A program made the translations under genes and the position numbers. A stretch of DNA of 64,000 nucleotides, taken from NCBI GenBank assembly GCA_038087875.1, contig CM075987.1:18292001-18356000 (forward strand). The letters are read 5' to 3'. The notes under the pieces were generated by a model, which was not told where the DNA came from, did no database searches, and worked only from the letters and a program-made list of their open reading frames with translations. This stretch comes from Malacoraja senta (taxonomy: Eukaryota). This document shows, piece after piece, positions 3,213-62,184 of this stretch (position 1 is the stretch's first letter; every line of letters starts with the position of its first letter).

Positions 3213-4222
3213 AAATACCTTCTTCCTACGAGCAGTGGCATTGTTCCCTGTGCTTTACATCTCGCAGCTCCTTGACCTCCACGCCATGTTCTAATCTCCG
3301 CTACTATTCAACCACTGTCAATTTAATTATTTAATGATAAAATAAAATATCAGCAGAATAGAATGTATGACTTCAAACGTGGGATTATCTACACTTACTG
3401 CTCTCTGTCCAGAAGTCTCCACTCGTTATTGGCTCCTAATATGTAACTCCATAGAAAATCAGAATGTAAGCAGATTGAAAGTGTACCTTCTAGCTTAACA
3501 AGACATCGATATCTATTGCACATTTGGCTTTGTGATTCCTGAAAGGACGCCAAGGGATACATGAGTACTTAAAGGATGATTTTGATTGTACTTAAAATGC
3601 CTGCTTGGAAAATTAATAACTATGGAAACACAGTTTCTGGCCCGACAGTCCTTGGAAGGGCAGTTCAACTGCAGGAGTGTCCAGTGGAGGAATCTATCCT
3701 AAGGACACGCCTCAAGAATTTCCTCCTAGCTGTTTCCAAGGTGACATCAAGCCGATTAATTAAAAATGGGTTATTGACTTCCTTAAGGCATGGAGGGAGG
3801 GATTCCAGAGGAATGTCTGCCGAGGATGTGCTGCAAAATCTTGTCATGGGTTTTGAGGCTAAAAAGATGTGTTCTATCTTTTTTTAAATAAAGGACACTA
3901 TTGAATCCATACTATTGTCCAATCTGTCACAGCCTGAGAAAATTAGAAGGGTTCAATAACCAACAATTAAACAATAAACCACCTTATAGTCAAGATGAAC
4001 CACAAAGTGCTGGAGTAAGCAGGTCAAGCAAAATCTCTGGAGGATGTGGACAGGCGACACTTTGGGTCAGGACAGTTCTTCAGACTACATGTTTATTTAA
4101 TTTAATCTGTTCATTAAGAATTCATCCAATCTTGACATATTAAGTGTTAGTTTTTATTGTCCAAGTAGTCTATTTGTGCTCCCACAAATACCTATTGGAA
4201 ACAAGAAGTGAAAAGTATTAAG

Positions 4223-6119: not shown

Positions 6120-7129
6120 AAATACCTTCTTCCTACGAGCAGTGGCATTGTTCCCTGTGCTTTACATCTCGCAGCTCCTTGACCTCCACGCCATGTTCTA
6201 ATCTCCGCTACTATTCAACCACTGTCAATTTAATTATTTAATGATAAAATAAAATATCAGCAGAATAGAATGTATGACTTCAAACGTGGGATTATCTACA
6301 CTTACTGCTCTCTGTCCAGAAGTCTCCACTCGTTATTGGCTCCTAATATGTAACTCCATAGAAAATCAGAATGTAAGCAGATTGAAAGTGTACCTTCTAG
6401 CTTAACAAGACATCGATATCTATTGCACATTTGGCTTTGTGATTCCTGAAAGGACGCCAAGGGATACATGAGTACTTAAAGGATGATTTTGATTGTACTT
6501 AAAATGCCTGCTTGGAAAATTAATAACTATGGAAACACAGTTTCTGGCCCGACAGTCCTTGGAAGGGCAGTTCAACTGCAGGAGTGTCCAGTGGAGGAAT
6601 CTATCCTAAGGACACGCCTCAAGAATTTCCTCCTAGCTGTTTCCAAGGTGACATCAAGCCGATTAATTAAAAATGGGTTATTGACTTCCTTAAGGCATGG
6701 AGGGAGGGATTCCAGAGGAATGTCTGCCGAGGATGTGCTGCAAAATCTTGTCATGGGTTTTGAGGCTAAAAAGATGTGTTCTATCTTTTTTTAAATAAAG
6801 GACACTATTGAATCCATACTATTGTCCAATCTGTCACAGCCTGAGAAAATTAGAAGGGTTCAATAACCAACAATTAAACAATAAACCACCTTATAGTCAA
6901 GATGAACCACAAAGTGCTGGAGTAAGCAGGTCAAGCAAAATCTCTGGAGGATGTGGACAGGCGACACTTTGGGTCAGGACAGTTCTTCAGACTACATGTT
7001 TATTTAATTTAATCTGTTCATTAAGAATTCATCCAATCTTGACATATTAAGTGTTAGTTTTTATTGTCCAAGTAGTCTATTTGTGCTCCCACAAATACCT
7101 ATTGGAAACAAGAAGTGAAAAGTATTAAG

Positions 7130-9139: not shown

Positions 9140-9745
9140 AAAAAAGACACAAAGTGCTGAAGTAATTCAACGGGTCAGGCAGCAGAACATGGATTGGTGA
9201 CGTTTTGGGTCGGGGCCCTTCTTCAGACTGATTGTGATGGGGGTGAGGAAGGAGAAAGCTGGAAGAGAGGAGATGCAGGGCAAAGCCTGGTGAGTGTTAG
9301 GTGGATACAGATGAGGGAGGCCTTTAATGGGCAGATGGTTGGACACAGGTCAGGCATCAAAAGCCAAAAAGTGTGAGATAAGGATGGATGAGGTGTGAAT
9401 TGTGAAGCCAGAGGAAGGAATACAGGTGGAACGAGAGGGGGAAATGTAGAAATTAGGGCAAGTTCAGGTGGGGCACAGGGATGAGAAAAGAAATGTAAAC
9501 AAATGAGTGAGGGGATTATTTGTAGGTCAGTTACTTAAAATTGGAGAATTAATTGTTCGTACCATAAGGGTAAAAACTACCCAAGCAGAATATGAGGTGA
9601 TGTTCCTCTACTTTGCATGCGTTCTCACTCTGGCAATGGAGAAGGGCAGAATGATCAGTATGGGAAATGGAAAACGGAAGTTAAAATGGTTAGCAACCAA
9701 GAAATCCAGCAGGCCTTGGTGGAGTGAGTCCAAGCGTGAAATGTT
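9140..9745 (-). mobile_element. Degenerate Penelope-like 3' fragment
   Basis: pLTR with hammerhead-like motif at 9196-9230 and an endonuclease C-terminal remnant. Confidence 0.65.
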
Positions 9746-30297: not shown

Positions 30298-31353
30298 ATG
30301 AGTTGCCAGTCACAATAAATGATTCTCGCAGACTGGAGCAGTAAGCTCAATTTTTAATTCACTTTCTGAGTATTTTACAGAGTCTAAATTAAAAATTGGA
30401 CCATACCCATACAGTTAGAGTAGAAAATAATTGTTTTCTTAATTTCTTTTGTTTTTGAATTAAATATGTGAAATAATTCATTTTAGGGCCATATAGCTTG
30501 CTAAGTAGTAATTATGGCTCAAAAACTAAGGAATATATATTTCCCTTGACCTCAGCAGGCAGTGCAGCCCATACAGATGCACTGAATCTGCGATAGCAAC
30601 TTTGGGCTTTCAGTGCTAACTTATGACAGCAGAGGAAACCCAAGTCCGATGCCTGTTTTGTAGAGAACTTTCAATAATGTCACTACTACAAAAGAAAACT
30701 GGTTGTAGTGGCAGCTGTCATCCAATGGAACTGTAGTAAAGAGATTAAAAACTTCCAGGAGCAGTGAATGTAGTCTGGAAGATCTTAACACTGTGAAGTT
30801 ATTAGAACATAGAACAGTACCGCACTGGAACAGGCCCTTCAGCTCACAATGTCTGTGCCGAACATGAAGCCAAGTTCAACTAATTTCCTCTGCCTGCCCA
30901 TGATCCATATCCCTCCATTCCCTGCACATCCATGTGCCTATCTAAAAGCTTTGAAAATGCCACCGTTGTATTTGTTTCCACCACCACCCCTGTCTGCGCG
31001 CTCCAGGCCCAAACCACTCGCTGTATTAAAAAACATGCCCTGCACATCTCCTTTAAAATTTTCTCCTCTCACTTTAAGGCTATGATCTCTAGTCTTTAAC
31101 ATCTTCACCCTGGGGAGGGGGGTGGGGCGATGACTGTCTACCCTAGCAATGCTTCTCATAATTCTATCAGGTCTCCCCTCAACCTCCACACTCCAGAGAA
31201 AACAATCCGAGTTTGTCCAACCTCTAACGAGAGCTATTACCCTCTAATCTGGTCAGCGTAAACCACCTCTACACCCTTTCCAAAGCCTCCACATCCTTCC
31301 TGTAATGGAGCATCTAATACTGCGCACAACAACTTGTTAATGAATAGTGATAG

Positions 31354-31935
31354 ACAGAAAAAGCTGGAGTAACTCAGCGGGTCAGGCAGCATCTCTGGAG
31401 AAAAGGAATAGGTGATGTTTTGGGACATAGGAGACCTTTCTTCTGACTGAGAGTCAGGGGAAAGGGAAACGAGAGATATAGACGGTGATACGATAGGATA
31501 AAACTTTATTCATCCCCGGAGGGAAATGGTTTGCCTCCGTAATTTTGTAATGCCAAAAAGTAACGACAATATGCCTGTTTCCTTTATTATCGTAACTTTT
31601 TGCATATTTCATTCATTTGTTCTATATCTCTCTACATCACCGTCTATATCTCTCGTTTCCCTTTCCGCTGACTCTCAGTCTGAAGAAGGTTACCGACCCG
31701 AAACATCACCTATTCCTTTTCCCCAGAGATGCTGAGTTATCCCAGCTTTTTGCATTGAGGCATAGAGTGATACAGTGTGGAAACAGGCCTTTCGGCCCAA
31801 CTTGCCCATACCGGCCAACAATGTCCCAGCTACACTAGTCCCACTTGCCTGCGCTTGGTCCATATCCCTCCAAACCTGTCCATCCATTTGTGTCTATCTT
31901 CAGTTTAAACCAGCATCTGGACTTCCTTCCTACAC
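31354..31935. mobile_element. Palindromic Penelope pLTR mini-element with nested inserts
   Basis: Inverted pLTR arms; 15-bp TSD aatgaat(a/c)gtgatag (31339-31353, 31936-31950). Confidence 0.75.
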
Positions 31936-35455: not shown

Positions 35456-35946
35456 CTATTGCATCCGCTGCTCGAGGTGTCAGCTGCTCTACGTCGGTGA
35501 GACCAAGCGTAGGCTTGGCGATCGCTTCGCCCAACACCTCCGCTCGGTTCGCAATGGACAAGCTGATCTCCCGGTGGCTCAGCACTTCAACTCCCCCTCC
35601 CATTCCAAATCCAATCTTTCTGTCCTGGGCCTCCTCCATGGCCAGAGTGAGGCCCATCGTAAATTGGAGGAGCAGCACCTCATATTTCGCTTGGGTAGTT
35701 TACACCCCAGCGGTATGAACATTGACCTCCAATTTCAGGTAGTCCTTGCTTTGTCCTTCTTTCCCCTGCCCTTCCCAGCTCTCCCACAGCCCATTGTCTC
35801 CGCCTCTTCCTTTCTTCTTCCCGCCCCCCCCCCCACCCCCACCCCACATCAGTCTGAAGAAGGGTCTCGACCCGAAACTTCGCCTATTTCCTTCACTCCA
35901 TAGATGCTGCCTTACCCGCTGAGTTTCTCCAGCATTTTTGTCTACC
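35456..35946 (+). mobile_element. Penelope-like GIY-YIG plus pLTR fragment
   Basis: IYCIRCSRCQLLYVGETKRRLGDRFAQH...RKLEEQHLIFRLGSLHPSGMN; flanked by an 8-bp direct repeat tacaaaat. Confidence 0.9.
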
Positions 35947-36037
35947 TACAAAATACTGGAGTAACTCAACGGGTCAGGCAGCAGCTCTGGAGAAAAAGGT
36001 GGAGTGAAGTTTCAGGTTGGGACCATTTGTCAGACTG

Positions 36038-36205
36038 AAGGGCTGTCCCACTTATGTAAATTTTTCGCCGACTTGCCGGCACCCGTCATAGTCGCCGCAG
36101 GTCAGTGAAAATTTTCAAAATGTTGAAAATCCAGCGGCAACCAGAAAAAGGTACGACTCTTTAGGCGACTACTCACGACCATACAGGAGTCACCCCACGG
36201 TCGGC
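36038..36205. mobile_element. Truncated related MITE (aagggctgtcccactt end)
   Basis: One terminus resembles the MITEs above; CpG-rich; no second TIR seen. Confidence 0.45.
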
Positions 36206-47534: not shown

Positions 47535-50073
47535 TAAGCCACTTTGCCCATATCAATGTGGCGTGCTTCTGTATCTAAAACAGGAGGGAGAAACCCCTTA
47601 TGATACCTCGGGATTATTAACTTAATGACTGTTCAATGTGTCTGATTCATCCACCGTGTCAGGCAGTGAGTTAGAGTCCATGTTAGCTGTGTGACTGTTT
47701 TCATAGCTAACAGTGTGTTGTGCAACAAAGTCAGTTTACCCAAGGGAAAAAAGATCAATTTAAACTGTGTGGTAAACTGAACTGAAGACTAAAACGACAC
47801 AACTCTCTCAATAAACGTAGGTCCACGCAGTGGTGGAGCTGGCAGAACTGCTCTTGATTAGTACAGGTGTCAGAGGTTATGGGGAAAAGGCCGGAGAATG
47901 GGGTTAGGAAGGAGAGATAGATCAGCCATGATTGAATGGTGGAGTAGACTTGGTGGGCCGAATGGGCTAATTCTAATGTTCCTTGTGACCTTATGACTTA
48001 TGATCTTATGAGCTGCTGCCTCATAGCGCCAGTGTCCCGGGTGGAGTTTGCACATTCTCCCTGTAACTGCATGAGTTGTCTCTGGGTGCTCTGCTTTCCA
48101 CATCGCAATAATGTGTGGGTTTGAAGGATAATTGGCCTTTGTAAATTGCCCCTAATGTGTAGGGAGTGAATAAGAAAGTGGGATAACATAAAATTAGAGA
48201 GAACAGGTTATCGCTGGTCAGCGAGGACCTGGCGGGCCAGAGGGCTTGTTTCCAAGCTGTATCTCAGAAAACCCAAGGGTAATTTCTCCAGAAGAGTGCA
48301 ATGATGGTGGGGGATAGTTATAAACAGTTATGTACATAAACTAAATCCCACCTTCAGCAGTTTGGTCACTAGCCTCCAGTCGATGGGTGAATTACCCCAT
48401 CATCCCTGCCCTGCCTGACAGAACTATTGCCACAATATTCACCCTGAGACATACAATACGATACAATACAATTCCTTGGCGAACTTTGGTTTCGTCGGGG
48501 TTTGCTTTCTGATCAATATTTATTGCACGTCCCTTTGGTCTTGTTGAAGACACGTTGCTCTTGGATTTGGAAATTAAGTTAAGTTTGAAACTAACCAATT
48601 CTAAAATATTTTCTGATATGGATCATTGAAGGCACATCTCATATCAATTCGAAACTCAAGGAGAGTGAGTGATGGTAACTGACTGATAGACCTTGGTGGA
48701 TTATGTGAAATAATGCACAATTTTTTTTTAACTTAACAACCGTTCCCAATAGTTCCAGGAGCTCGTGAACACCAGAACAATATCTCCACAAGATTAACAT
48801 GGGAATGCACTGAGAACTTGCATAGAGTTGGTGGGTCAAAGGGTCATAGGAAAATACGAGACGCATTGTCTCACATGGAACATAGATCAGTACAGCACAG
48901 GAACTGGCCCTTCAACCCACATTGTCTAACCCGAACATGATGCCAAATTAAACTAATCTCTGCCTGCATGCAATCCACACCCCTCTATTCCCTGCAGATC
49001 CATGTGCCTATCTAAAAGCCACTTTAGTGCCACTATGATATCTGCCTCCACCACATCTCTTGGCAGTGTGTTTCAGGTCCCCACCATTCCCTGTGGTGGA
49101 AATATACTTGTCCCGCACATCTCCTTTAAACTTTGACCCTTCCACCTTAAAGTTATGCCTGCTAGTCCTTGACATTTCCACCCTGTTTATAAAGGTTCTG
49201 ACTGTCTACCCTATCTACGCCTCTCATAATTTTATATACTATCAGGTTTCCCCCTCGGCTCCAGAGAAACTAATCCAAGTTTATCAAACCTCTCCTTTTA
49301 GGTAATAACCTCCAATCCAGACAGCATTCTGGTAAATGTCTTCTCTCTACCCTTTCCAAAGCCTCCACATCCTTCCTGTAATGGGGCAACCAGCATTGCA
49401 CACAATACTCCAAATGCGACCCAACCTAAGTCCTATAAAGCTGCAGCATGACTTCCTGACTCTCACACTCATTGAGGCAAGAGATGAATGCAGCCAAGGA
49501 GAACCCTCCAGTCTGAATCATGTCACTGCTAATTTACACTTCAAATCAATTTGTTGTATTCATTTCCATAATCCTCGATACATATTTAACTAAACTCTAT
49601 CAGTTGAAAGTTCCCCTTATTTCATGCACCAGTGCTTCCCGAGGGAAGTAACAGAATTCCACCAATCTTTATGTTAAATTCCCTTTCCTTTCCAAATAAC
49701 ATGATTCTAATAAGAAAGTTGTGTTCCCCTCCTCCTGGTTTCCCTCCCACCAATGATCTCTCCGTTTGTTCTACCAAATTATGCTTTCAACCTTCAATAC
49801 ACCAGGGAATCCACCCCAATTTGATGCAATTTATGCATGCAGGAAAATAGAATTGGTCAACGAGAAATCATTCAAAACTAACGTGAGAGCTGGAGCAGAA
49901 TAAAATGTCGCTGTGCCCTTGATGTTGGAAGGTGAGGAGGTTGGTTTATCTAATCTCCTCTGCTTGCACGTGATCCATATCCCTACATTCCTTAGGGGGT
50001 TGATTCACAGGTGTATTGCAGGGTTATGGAATAATTAAATAGCCAACGTGCTTGATGTCTTCCCTTGTCACAG

Positions 50074-50137
50074 GATGGATGACGCAGAAGCCTGTTTCAT
50101 TCTGAGCAGCCGCAATGAAGTGGACCGTACAGCAGCG
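50074..50137 (+). CDS. kcnt1: kcnt1 exon: MDDAEACFILSSRNEVDRTAA
   Basis: tgtcacag|G ... GCG|gtacag; 64 nt. Confidence 0.94.
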
Positions 50138-50447
50138 GTACAGTAACCCCAACAGTGAACTGGGAGGGGGGTTGGGGGATGGGGGGTGGGGGTGGGCTTA
50201 ATACTATGGATGCCTTGGTAAAAGGAAAACTCTACCATAAGTAAAATGTTCTGAGATCAAGCTGATATTTCATCGGTGCCATCTAAATCAAGAATAGAAC
50301 AGGATCGCTAACTCTCGAAGACATATAGAAACTTCATAAGGAGTCTTTCTGTCACCAACTCAGAACCACACGTGTGTTTTGCATGTGTAATTCTTTAATA
50401 AACGAATTTGTTGCAAAAATAATGAAAACAAACACACTTAATATCCC

Positions 50448-50664
50448 GTGTGTAAGAAAGAACTGCAGATGCTGGTTTAAATCGACACAAAATGCTGGAG
50501 TAACTCAGCGGGACAGGCAGCATCTGTGGAGATAAGGAATGGGTGACGTTTAGGGTCGAGACCCTTCTTCAGACTGAAGAAGGGTCTCGACCCGAAACAT
50601 CATCCATTACTTCTCTCCAGAGATGCTGCCTGTCCCGCTGAGTTACTCCAGCATTCTGTGTCGT
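50448..50664. mobile_element. Palindromic Penelope pLTR mini-element, two head-to-head hammerhead motifs
   Basis: 90-bp arms 50483-50572 and 50574-50663; 14-bp TSD acacttaatatccc (50434-50447, 50665-50678). Confidence 0.88.
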
Positions 50665-51138
50665 ACACTTAATATCCCTATAATTTTTCTCCTGGGTTAT
50701 GGCCAGATAATTCATCTTAATTCCTGCAAACTCTACATCAATCCTGCACAATTGGCACTGAGGAAAACATTTTGTACAGGTGCCCTATTCATTGCCGTTT
50801 CATGTTCCCATTTGGTAATTGATTGTTATTTTTGAATATCAATGATTAATTTTCAGGATTATCATGCGAGTAGATTTTAAATACTCTGCGATGAAACTAA
50901 ATAACTTCCATTTGTACTGGAACAAGGATTTTTTACTCCTGCTCTCCCCAGCCCTTGACGTACTGGACAAGGGTAACATTTCATCCATTATGTCCTCAGA
51001 ATGCGAAGATCATTGTCGGCATTCCTTTGACCTTGTGAAATAATGCCCTGGATGTTGCTGGCACTGTCCACATCTGGAATTATTGTCCACCATGGCCCCA
51101 TGCTCACACTTAGGAAGGACAGATGTGGACAAGTTATT

Positions 51139-61784: not shown

Positions 61785-61979
61785 GGTAGACAAAAATGCT
61801 GGAGAGACTCAGCGGGTGAGGCAGCATCTGTGGAGTGAAGGAAACTGGCAACGTTTTGGGTCGAAACCCTTCTTCAGAGGGTTGCCTATTTAGTTCGCTC
61901 CATAGATGCTGCCTCACCCGCTGAGTTTCTCCAGCATTTATGTCTACCTTCGATTTTCCAGCAACTGCAGTTCCTTCTT
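61785..61979. mobile_element. Palindromic Penelope pLTR mini-element
   Basis: Inverted pLTR arms; 13-bp TSD atacatttctgct (61772-61784, 61980-61992). Confidence 0.85.
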
Positions 61980-62184
61980 ATACATTTCTGCTATTGAGTT
62001 GCAATTATAAATACACTTCAAAAGAGTCAGTAGTGAATGAAAATCAATCAAATTCAGCATTTGAGTGAATGTATGTCATCAAAACTATTTTGGTAGATTT
62101 TTATCACCGTAATGTTCATCTATCTTATTTTAGATCATGAAATGAACATCCAATATGAATTTAAATTATTGTAAGAATTTGTTT

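What the first reader, a model, noticed from the sequence alone, without database searches (positions are those of the whole stretch)
50434..50678. Palindromic hammerhead mini-element inserted as one unit (14-bp TSD)
Seen: the 217-bp insert is two Penelope pLTR ends fused head-to-head at a 1-nt centre (ttcag-a-ctgaa, 50573). The 90-bp arms have about 7 mismatches. One arm has an extra ~35-nt tail, and the whole is flanked by acacttaatatccc. Each strand carries a CUGAAGA..stem II..(G)AAAC..UC motif, and the fold-back point sits immediately 5' of both cores. Established: Penelope-like elements carry minimal hammerheads in pLTRs, can show inverted pLTRs, and have an optional 3' tail. Inference: template switching or re-priming next to the hammerhead generates self-complementary mini-elements, and this one forms a long dsRNA hairpin in kcnt1 pre-mRNA about 310 nt after an exon.
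Basis: partly seen in the sequence, partly recalled or inferred. Interest (0 to 1): 0.7.

Follow-up and report, generated by a model that had tools for sequence, protein, structure and literature searches.

The report
Head-to-head Penelope repeat mini-element
The 217-base palindromic insert is one ordinary copy of a very abundant family of tiny retrotransposon leftovers, made of two end-pieces of a Penelope-like element joined head to head, and the family as a whole records how these poorly understood elements integrate.

Summary
A 217-bp insert (50448-50664) is flanked by an exact 14-bp duplication. It has two 90-nt arms (92% complementary), a 1-nt centre and a 35-nt tail on one arm. It is not a one-off: the genome holds many full-length copies (86-91% identity), most with their own 7-17-bp duplications. 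Arm plus tail match the last ~135 nt of an abundant, decayed element encoding reverse transcriptase and a GIY-YIG endonuclease, which is the Penelope-like architecture. The arm starts with a minimal hammerhead-like box. The joint lies in a narrow window at the 5' edge of that box, 28 nt upstream of the predicted cleavage site. Outer arm ends fall on two sites ~35-40 nt apart, like the published two reverse-transcription start sites. Arms of one element share subfamily variants, and no arm-specific variants exist. I therefore think the palindromes formed repeatedly at integration. Self-priming and priming from both target strands cannot be separated. The insert sits in an intron of a KCNT1-like gene. 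Contigs from one related organism reach both insert/flank junctions and contigs from another reach the right one. Inverted repeats, tail and duplication are known Penelope features; the ORF-less, highly amplified form is the new part. No RNA data were available.

The parts
50434..50447 (.). left copy of the 14-bp target-site duplication
   Evidence: exact 14-mer repeat
50448..50482 (-). 35-nt 'tail'. It is the 3'-most part of the module when read on the - strand. It lacks 7 nt at the tail/arm border that 26 of 28 other fetched copies in the alignment have.
   Evidence: aligned with 28 other full-length copies; homologous to the last ~40 nt of the parent element in L033
50483..50572 (-). arm A, the tail-bearing arm; its hammerhead-like box reads on the - strand
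   Evidence: inverted repeat I1; matches parent reference positions 715-850 together with the tail
50545..50572 (-). minimal hammerhead-like box of arm A; carries T in place of the family's G in GAAAC
   Evidence: read; family majority; no Rfam hit
50573..50573 (.). single central base (A on the + strand); centre of the 5-nt joint AGACT
50574..50663 (+). arm B, tail-less; its hammerhead-like box reads on the + strand, the strand of the host gene
   Evidence: matches parent reference 715-808
50574..50601 (+). minimal hammerhead-like box of arm B; ACATC where the family has ACGTC
   Evidence: read
50664..50664 (.). one base between arm B and the right duplication copy
50665..50678 (.). right copy of the 14-bp target-site duplication
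50039..50137 (+). upstream exon of the host KCNT1-like gene; the insert lies in the following intron
   Evidence: phmmer against PDB chains, E 1e-6

Best explanation
The insert is one copy of an abundant family of non-autonomous derivatives of a Penelope-like element (PLE).

Structure. Each copy consists only of two copies of the element's ~95-nt terminal module. The module runs from the 5' edge of a minimal hammerhead-like box to the region where reverse transcription starts. The two copies are joined head to head, and usually one of them carries the 35-40-nt PLE 'tail'.

Shown. The whole structure entered the intron of a KCNT1-like gene as one unit and made a 14-bp target-site duplication. 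Contigs of one related organism reach both insert/flank junctions and contigs of a second reach the right one. The family architecture, the parentage and the fixed joint are shown by alignment and search. The outer ends coincide with the two preferred 3' ends of single-arm copies. The two arms of one element share variants.

Inferred. The palindrome is made afresh at each integration from one short template variant. The first cDNA reaches the template's fixed 5' end, just 5' of the hammerhead box. The inverted arm is then made in one of two ways. Either the cDNA end folds back or switches onto cDNA, or a second cDNA is primed from the other target strand and the two quasi-palindromic cDNA 3' ends anneal. 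That 5' end may be a transcription start inside an initiator-like TCAGTCT. The copy is old and probably inert: both hammerhead-like boxes are mutated. Its only likely present effect is a long hairpin in the host pre-mRNA.
For: Family. Of 4648 first-look candidates, 40 were scored, and they carry the whole palindrome at 86-91% identity. Of 29 fetched loci, 21 have their own direct repeat of 7-17 nt at the ends, and 20 of those are 9 nt or longer. All 29 align over the whole length.

Parent. In L033 a GIY-YIG frame (Pfam 30.5 bits, cut-off 22.6) ends 107 nt before the box, followed by arm and tail. All 30 parent loci give collinear tblastn hits (24-42% identity) to an intact RT+GIY-YIG frame of another family in the same genome.

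Fixed ends. In a 325,626-base sample there were 211 matches. Their 5' ends: 112 fall in reference 710-729, where the box starts at 720. Their 3' ends: 94 fall at 800-819 and 71 at 840-850. Tail-less arms of palindromes end in the same 798-819 window as tail-less single arms.

Orientation. Among 91 untargeted arm matches, adjacent pairs were 11 head-to-head, 1 tail-to-tail and 3 tandem-like.

De novo formation. The arms of one element share 40 non-consensus non-CpG states over 37 elements, against 0.27 per random pair; 0 of 5000 partner shuffles reach this. There is no arm-specific sharing: 333 same-side against 320 cross-side, and 439 of 2000 label swaps reach the difference. Centres are varied.

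This copy. It has a single duplication. Contigs of organism G reach both junctions and a contig of organism F crosses the right one, with flanks 4-5% diverged.

Literature (passages read). An inverted pLTR plus tail plus duplication is the typical Penelope structure, and a self-priming idea has been proposed (PMC3846280). The tail lies between two RT start sites, and the protein cleaves and extends both strands (PMC11167929).
Against: The sample is small and not random. It consists of the window plus 1.5-kb flanks of family members. The 29 best copies were selected by likeness to a one-tailed query.

One-tailed palindromes are over-represented: 8 of 9 untargeted pairs, P about 0.01 if each arm chose its start site as single arms do. 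Independent priming from two strands does not predict this.

Single-arm 5' ends are backed by a duplication of 8 nt or more in only 6 of 37 copies, and there they spread from -15 to 0 relative to the box. Many 'single arms' simply continue into the upstream region of other PLE subfamilies.

The parent's 5' end could not be reached. The module is therefore shown only as the 3' terminus, not as a repeat at both ends.

Two elements (L024, L025) carry a 2-nt subfamily marker in one arm only. Five palindromes with the 7-nt border deletion have it in one arm only.

Rfam does not recognise the box, and its helix I would be only 2 bp.
Confidence: 0.7

Rival explanations
1. Copied palindromic masters. 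A few palindromic source copies are transcribed by read-through from outside. The hairpin RNA is reverse-transcribed from the tail end to its 5' end, so the palindrome is inherited like a SINE rather than rebuilt each time.
For: The architecture is very uniform among the 29 best copies. One-tailed forms predominate, 8 of 9 untargeted pairs; inheritance would explain this without further assumption. A young, perfect master would leave no arm-specific variants, so one search does not exclude it.
Against: The mirrored variants show palindromic members in several differently marked groups. Masters would therefore have had to form repeatedly anyway. Both centre states occur within each of the three tail variants (read by eye). 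Centres include fillers and truncated arms. The tail-less end coincides with the 3' end of single arms, which would be a coincidence for an RNA 5' end. If the initiator-like centre is a promoter, it would transcribe outward and give single-arm RNAs only; this last point is inference.
Confidence: 0.2
2. Two independent insertions. One module copy inserted first, and a second later landed exactly at its head in the opposite orientation.
For: PLEs are reported to insert into or beside existing copies (review passage in PMC6765202). The family is dense in the sampled sequence (91 untargeted arm matches).
Against: A single 14-bp duplication brackets the whole structure, and none brackets one arm. 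Head-to-head pairs outnumber tail-to-tail pairs 11 to 1. Arms of one element share variants far above chance. Contigs of organism G reach both outer junctions.
Confidence: 0.02
3. A DNA transposon of the MITE type, with terminal inverted repeats moved by a transposase.
For: Palindromic shape, small size, flanking duplication and high copy number.
Against: Duplication length varies from 7 to 17 nt between copies. The repeat fills the whole element up to a 1-nt centre. One end carries an unpaired 35-nt tail. The arms are the 3' terminus of an RT/GIY-YIG element. Single-arm copies with the same ends are common.
Confidence: 0.02
4. A host-selected hairpin, for example a small-RNA precursor, an editing site or a splicing modulator of the KCNT1-like gene.
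For: A very stable predicted hairpin 311 nt after an exon. The insert is retained in organisms F and G. Weak microRNA-model hits appear in the Rfam E-value run.
Against: The arms have drifted apart by 7 of 90 positions. That is about 3.9% per arm, similar to the 4-5% divergence of the flanks between organisms, so there is no sign of constraint. The Rfam hits are far below gathering scores (39 against 245 bits; 35 against 64 bits) and fit any long hairpin. Many other copies have the same shape.
Confidence: 0.03

Closest known systems
Canonical Penelope insertion structure (Drosophila virilis Penelope; Adineta vaga Pen2a): inverted pLTR next to direct pLTR-ORF-pLTR, optional tail, short duplication. 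Sources: PMC3846280 and PMC8557442 (passages read); PMC2377424 (passages read).
   Same: Head-to-head inverted terminal repeat with a palindromic joint. A 30-40-nt tail usually at one end only. A target-site duplication around the whole unit (9 bp in Pen2a, 14 bp here). A hammerhead motif in the repeat. Three of the 29 fetched copies lie in microsatellites.
   Different: There is no ORF and no direct repeat: only the two inverted modules remain. The form is highly amplified; by extrapolation from a small, non-random sample I estimate at least tens of thousands of copies. The joint sits at one narrow place at the edge of the hammerhead box rather than at variable truncation points. In the same genome's longer parent copies the truncation points do vary.
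Anolis carolinensis Poseidon (PAc) in vitro system, PMC11167929 (main text parts 1-2 read)
   Same: Two preferred 3' ends ~35-40 nt apart, which fit 'the tail is the sequence between two RT start sites'. The hammerhead lies ~90-135 nt upstream of them. The cleavage site is not used as an end. The finding that the protein cleaves and extends both strands offers a route to head-to-head products.
   Different: That work did not report head-to-head mini-products in the parts I read. Here nothing is tested biochemically. Some copies here show 2-7 nt of overlap between duplication and tail end, whereas PAc starts without homology.
Animal non-LTR retrozymes and Schistosoma hammerhead-bearing SINE-like elements, seen as non-autonomous partners of PLEs. 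Sources: bioRxiv 10.64898/2026.07.22.740005 (passages read); PMC7229834 (search listing and abstract start only); PMC4209133 (parts 1-2 read).
   Same: Short non-coding elements that carry PLE-type hammerhead motifs and presumably use PLE enzymes in trans. PMC4209133 notes pairs of minimal hammerheads 100-700 bp apart on opposite strands in Schistosoma.
   Different: Retrozymes are tandem direct repeats thought to pass through circular RNA cut at the ribozyme site. Here the units are inverted, not tandem (3 tandem-like against 11 head-to-head), and no end lies at the predicted cleavage site.
LINE-1 twin priming
   Same: A second priming event on the other target strand during target-primed reverse transcription gives inverted segments within one duplication.
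   Different: Twin priming gives an inversion with an internal deletion of one RNA copy, not a near-perfect palindrome of the same segment.

Membership tests
Penelope-like element (non-autonomous derivative) | Sequence derived from an element that encodes a reverse transcriptase plus a C-terminal GIY-YIG endonuclease | tested here: met
   In L033 a GIY-YIG frame (30.5 bits, cut-off 22.6) is followed 107 nt later by the box, arm and tail. All 30 parent loci hit an intact frame of another family. That frame carries RVT_1 at 27.8 bits, just under its 29.6 cut-off, and GIY-YIG at 27.3 bits, over its 22.6 cut-off. Two other parent frames (L075, L067) gave no Pfam hit.
Penelope-like element (non-autonomous derivative) | Optional 30-40-nt tail at one end | tested here: met
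   35 nt in this copy. 3' ends pile at two sites, reference 800-819 (94 matches) and 840-850 (71 matches). Untargeted pairs: 8 with one tail, 1 with two tails, 0 with none.
Penelope-like element (non-autonomous derivative) | Inverted (head-to-head) terminal repeats inside one target-site duplication of variable length | tested here: met
Penelope-like element (non-autonomous derivative) | The module is a pseudo-LTR, that is, repeated at both ends of a full-length element | tested here: inconclusive
   Nothing conserved follows any of 69 tail ends. The 5' ends of two parent copies could not be recognised. Further fetching was not possible.
Hammerhead ribozyme (minimal type I, PLE kind) | Core boxes CUGANGA, GAAA and a UH cleavage triplet; an extra base between positions 9 and 10.1; a G10.1-C11.1 pair; a palindromic 15.2-16.2 pair (criteria from PMC4209133) | tested here: met
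   The family majority sequence has all of them. In this copy one box has lost the G of GAAA and the other has lost the palindromic pair.
Hammerhead ribozyme (minimal type I, PLE kind) | Helix I of 4-6 bp between the sequence 5' of the box and the sequence 3' of the cleavage site | tested here: not met
   Only 2 pairs are possible, both in the parent and in the palindrome. PMC4209133 reports a 2-bp helix I for the D. virilis variant, so this alone does not exclude the kind.
Hammerhead ribozyme (Rfam families) | A match to an Rfam hammerhead covariance model | tested here: not met
   No match at gathering score or at E<=10. The Rfam models require a helix III hairpin, which minimal PLE motifs lack (recalled).
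Hammerhead ribozyme | Self-cleavage | not testable with these tools
   No assay was possible. No element end coincides with the predicted cleavage site.
Retrozyme | Tandem direct repeats bounded by hammerhead cleavage sites | tested here: not met
   3 tandem-like against 11 head-to-head adjacent pairs. Ends are not at the cleavage site.
MITE / DNA transposon | Duplication of fixed length and transposase-type terminal inverted repeats | tested here: not met
   Duplications range from 7 to 17 nt. The arms are a retroelement terminus.

The most novel reading that the evidence does not exclude
The joint marks a true RNA 5' end. On this reading, an initiator-type start (TCA+1GTCT) is built into the 5' edge of the hammerhead box. 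Two modules joined head to head would then form a self-contained divergent promoter. It would fire outward and produce the ~100-135-nt module RNAs that the Penelope enzyme copies. The two cDNA ends (quasi-palindromic AGACT) would pair when both target strands are primed. The palindrome would then be both the product and the best source of its own template: a self-renewing 'palindromic SINE' of Penelope-like elements, and a natural record of two-strand target-primed reverse transcription.
Probability: 0.2. Interest if true: 0.6.

Novelty: new variant of a known kind. Interest (0 to 1): 0.35.

Why it matters
How Penelope-like elements integrate is still largely unknown, and why they build tandem and inverted repeats is an open question stated in PMC8557442 and PMC11167929. 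This genome holds many minimal head-to-head products, each with its own duplication, outer ends and joint. A full census of joints, tails and arm variants could distinguish self-priming from two-strand priming without an in vitro system. It could also test whether the hammerhead edge is a transcription start. For the host the copy itself is ordinary: an old intronic repeat that can form a 90-bp RNA hairpin in a KCNT1-like pre-mRNA, with no evidence of function.

Tried and rejected
- Rfam at gathering score and at E<=10 gave no hammerhead. The microRNA-model hits are generic for long hairpins.
- RNA evidence: no RNA holder was listed. All four runs laid were contigs, and X1 is probably DNA. Expression, editing, small RNAs and RNA ends could therefore not be examined.
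- Empty orthologous site: none was seen. The two related organisms that could be laid hold the insert.
- A larger random sample of the genome could not be obtained. Counts rest on 325,626 bases.
- Parent 5' end. Two upstream stretches were fetched. They showed an inverted arm next to a decayed 5' region but no recognisable start. A search with L053:1-400 hit an unrelated short repeat instead, and its loci could not be cut out.
- Does anything conserved follow the tail, as it would if the module also opened the element? Nothing did at 69 tail ends.
- Is the 7-nt border deletion of this copy mirrored in its other arm, as evidence for one template? The variant occurs at 16 places. Five of the 15 others are palindromes whose tail-less arm is not deleted. 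The result is ambiguous: a recurrent deletion or two templates.
- Anchoring the centre by two 11-nt anchors failed for 13 of 37 elements.
- Literature. Exact-sequence searches found no paper. 'Penelope, retrotransposon, shark, hammerhead' gave one review. Lunse et al. 2017 on dimeric PLE hammerheads is not held, so it is known to me only from a review passage and from recall. I did not look at supplements of any paper; the supplementary figures of PMC4209133 may show vertebrate motifs like this one.
- Earlier notes of this scan: none for this genome.
- timed out and was rerun.

Full report
WHAT IS THERE

An exact 14-mer lies at 50434-50447 and again at 50665-50678. It is the only direct-repeat family found between 50000 and 51100. 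Between the two copies lie 217 bases. They comprise a 35-nt stretch (50448-50482), a 90-nt arm (50483-50572), one base (50573), the inverted arm (50574-50663; 92% complementary, 7 mismatches) and one further base. As RNA the insert folds into one long hairpin of -160.3 kcal/mol. Two hundred shuffles gave -62.4 +/- 4.4 kcal/mol, z = -22.3, and none folded as well.

Each strand reads CTGAAGA, a 12-nt near-palindromic stem, then (G)AAAC and TC, starting right at the centre. Rfam finds no hammerhead at gathering score or at E<=10.

The stretch 50039-50137 (+) encodes a peptide that matches KCNT1 chains of the PDB at E 1e-6. The insert therefore lies in an intron of a KCNT1-like gene on the + strand, starting 311 nt after that exon's last matched base.

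IT IS A FAMILY, NOT A SINGLE EVENT

A search of the window's own 1.94-Gb assembly gave 4648 first-look candidates. The 40 that were scored carry the whole palindrome, mostly with the tail, at 86-91% identity. I fetched 29 distinct loci.
- 21 of 29 have their own direct repeat of 7-17 nt at the two ends; 20 of these are 9 nt or longer, and 8 loci have none.
- Several repeats overlap the first 2-7 bases of the tail end.
- Three copies lie in GT or TA microsatellites.
- All 29 align over the full length. The majority sequence is a perfect palindrome of about 91 nt per arm with a tail of about 40 nt.
- The window copy lacks 7 nt at the tail/arm border.

WHERE THE ARMS COME FROM

Among 20 loci found with the GIY-YIG Pfam model, one (L033) carries the module. 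There, a frame with a GIY-YIG domain (30.5 bits, cut-off 22.6) stops. After 107 nt of pyrimidine-rich sequence come the box, the arm and the tail, and then unrelated DNA.

This parent is itself abundant: 13006 first-look candidates, with 40 scored at 86-88% identity. It is decayed, and its longest open frame is 336 aa. All 30 parent loci give collinear tblastn hits (24-42% identity) to an intact frame of a second family in the same genome. That frame carries RVT_1 (27.8 bits, just under its 29.6 cut-off) and GIY-YIG (27.3 bits, over its cut-off). Reverse transcriptase plus a C-terminal GIY-YIG endonuclease is the canonical architecture of endonuclease-bearing Penelope-like elements (PMC8557442 and PMC11167929, passages read).

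The arm plus tail is thus the 3'-terminal ~135 nt of a Penelope-like element. I could not show that the module also stands at the 5' end of a full-length element:
- nothing conserved follows any of 69 tail ends;
- two parent 5' regions were unreadable;
- no more genome sequence could be fetched.

FIXED ENDS

I compared a reference (L033:1168-2017; the box starts at reference 720 and the tail ends at 850) with 325,626 bases, made up of the window plus all loci. There were 211 matches.
- 5' ends: 112 fall in reference 710-729.
- 3' ends: 94 fall at 800-819 and 71 at 840-850.

The two 3' sites are ~35-40 nt apart. This fits the published finding that the Penelope tail is the sequence between two reverse-transcription start sites (PMC11167929).

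Tail-less arms of head-to-head pairs end at 798-819, the same window as tail-less single arms.

The 5' boundary is less sharp for single arms than the histogram suggests. Only 6 of 37 untargeted single arms have a duplication of 8 nt or more. In those the element starts 0 to 15 nt before the box. Many other 'single arms' continue into pyrimidine-rich upstream sequence of other subfamilies that ends in CAGT.

The predicted hammerhead cleavage site, after GTC and 28 nt into the arm, is not an end of anything. This agrees with the report that cleavage is not needed for insertion (PMC11167929).

HEAD-TO-HEAD IS THE RULE

Among 91 arm matches outside the stretches I had searched for, adjacent pairs were 11 head-to-head, 1 tail-to-tail and 3 tandem-like fragments.

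Centres were examined in 37 elements.
- 24 of 37 could be anchored; 13 could not.
- 7 are AGACT and 4 are AGTCT, read with the tail-bearing arm on the left.
- 5 are small variants.
- 8 hold 6-18 nt. Some of these extend both arms by the parent's next bases (ATCAGT), and some are fillers.
- A few pairs have one arm shortened at the centre.

Longer parent copies in the same genome also have inverted, 5'-truncated partners, but at variable points.

MADE AFRESH OR COPIED?

I aligned 38 pairs, 29 searched-for and 9 untargeted, and dropped one duplicate locus (L020).
- The two arms of one element share 40 non-consensus, non-CpG states over 37 elements. Random pairs share 0.27 each. None of 5000 partner shuffles reaches the observed sharing or the low within-pair distance (0.094 against 0.117).
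- The shared states mark several differently marked groups of copies.
- Tail-bearing arms do not share variants with each other more than with tail-less arms: 333 same-side against 320 cross-side, and 439 of 2000 label swaps reach the difference. There is therefore no trace of a long-lived asymmetric master.
- Both centre states occur within each of the three tail variants (read by eye).

Together with the varied centres, this points to repeated formation of the palindrome at integration from one template variant.

Evidence that does not fit neatly:
- L024 and L025 carry a 2-nt subfamily marker in one arm only.
- Five palindromes with the 7-nt border deletion have it in one arm only.
- One-tailed pairs are 8 of 9 among untargeted pairs. 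About 46% would be expected if each arm chose its start site as single arms do (P about 0.01).

HOW IT PROBABLY WORKS (INFERENCE)

A short RNA that begins just 5' of the box and ends at the tail is copied from a nick in the target. At the RNA's 5' end the cDNA ends in ...CAGACT. Its last five bases are nearly self-complementary. There are then two routes.
- The end folds back or switches onto cDNA and copies the arm again. This is the self-priming idea of PMC3846280.
- A second cDNA, primed from the other target strand, pairs with it. PMC11167929 shows that the protein cleaves and extends both strands. An A:A mismatch in the middle would resolve to A or T, which would fit the two centre states.

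Shared arm variants favour the first route. The canonical outer end of the second arm, the fillers and the hybrids favour the second. I cannot decide between them.

The sequence TCAGTCT at the boundary fits the initiator consensus as I recall it. The D. virilis Penelope promoter has been aligned with the initiator and downstream-promoter-element promoters of Drosophila LINEs (PMC2377424). Initiator-like motifs in both directions were noted in rotifer pLTRs (PMC3846280). Whether the boundary is a transcription start is untested here.

THIS COPY'S HISTORY

Contigs of the probable same organism (X19) cover the left and right junctions with no differences. They reach 28 and 31 letters into the insert.

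| Run (organism) | Record | Junction | Letters inside insert | Other letters / positions |
|---|---|---|---|---|
| X21 (F) | 24 | right | 38 | 24 / 501 |
| X24 (G) | 32 | right | 36 | 20 / 499 |
| X24 (G) | 25 | left | 30 (one short of the tool's 31-letter rule) | 21 / 514 |

No contig spans the whole insert. The insertion therefore predates the split of these organisms. This fits arms that differ at 7 of 90 positions, about 3.9% per arm. No empty site and no one-arm site was seen. Relative to the family majority, one box of this copy has lost the G of GAAA and the other has lost the palindromic pair.

COMPARISON WITH WHAT IS KNOWN

The typical Penelope structure is an inverted pLTR beside a direct one, a 31-34-nt tail at one end, a duplication around the whole unit and palindromes at the inverted joint (PMC3846280, PMC8557442, PMC2377424). 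Minimal hammerheads are abundant in fish, coelacanth and frog genomes. Pairs on opposite strands 100-700 bp apart were noted in Schistosoma (PMC4209133). Non-autonomous partners of Penelope-like elements are known as tandem retrozymes (bioRxiv 10.64898/2026.07.22.740005).

What I did not find in print is an ORF-less element made only of the two inverted modules and amplified to very high copy number. I did not look at supplements, and Lunse et al. 2017 is not held.

VERDICT

The identification as Penelope ends joined head to head and inserted as one unit is supported. The link to the hammerhead as a cause is not shown. The copy is an old, ordinary intronic repeat. The family is a useful natural record of Penelope integration: a new variant of a known kind, of moderate interest.

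Noticed in passing
window 61785-61984: A second head-to-head pair, from a divergent subfamily. Its two arms share 6 subfamily variants. One arm is shortened by about 40 nt at the centre and there is a 19-nt gap.
   Followed up: partly
window 35841-36040: Two arms joined tail to tail, with outer ends 5 nt apart and heads pointing outward. This is the rare arrangement; only 1 tail-to-tail pair against 11 head-to-head pairs was counted in the sample.
   Followed up: partly
window 4001-4086 and 6908-6993: Two module copies with identical sequence and identical 45-nt upstream flanks, about 2.9 kb apart. This looks like a local duplication rather than two insertions.
   Followed up: no
G000 C14:18.24-18.41 Mb, and C5550, C5485, C4423, C1804 and others (loci L034-L050): Arrays of a second Penelope-like family with intact 759-aa frames (RVT_1 plus GIY-YIG). 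It has its own box, CTGACGA..GAAAC. It includes an array of 274-aa GIY-YIG frames with a period of about 1561 bp.
   Followed up: partly
L053:135-284: Another short repeat family sits inside a decayed parent copy. It gave 5607 first-look candidates and its 40 scored hits were at 80-90% identity.
   Followed up: no
16 places in G000, including window 50474-50500: The same 7-nt loss at the tail/arm border recurs at 16 places. Where the copy is a palindrome, only the tail-bearing arm shows the loss. The cause is unexplained: a recurrent slip or a second template.
   Followed up: partly
L065:3142-3254: A tail lies directly against the head of an inverted arm, as if the whole tail-bearing arm had been deleted from a palindrome.
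   Followed up: no
upstream of the box in many copies, for example window 31351-31450 and 9145-9232: The ~100 nt before the box are pyrimidine-rich and end in CAG, like a 3' splice site. In D. virilis Penelope an intron ends at the hammerhead's helix I (PMC4209133). This was not tested here.
   Followed up: no
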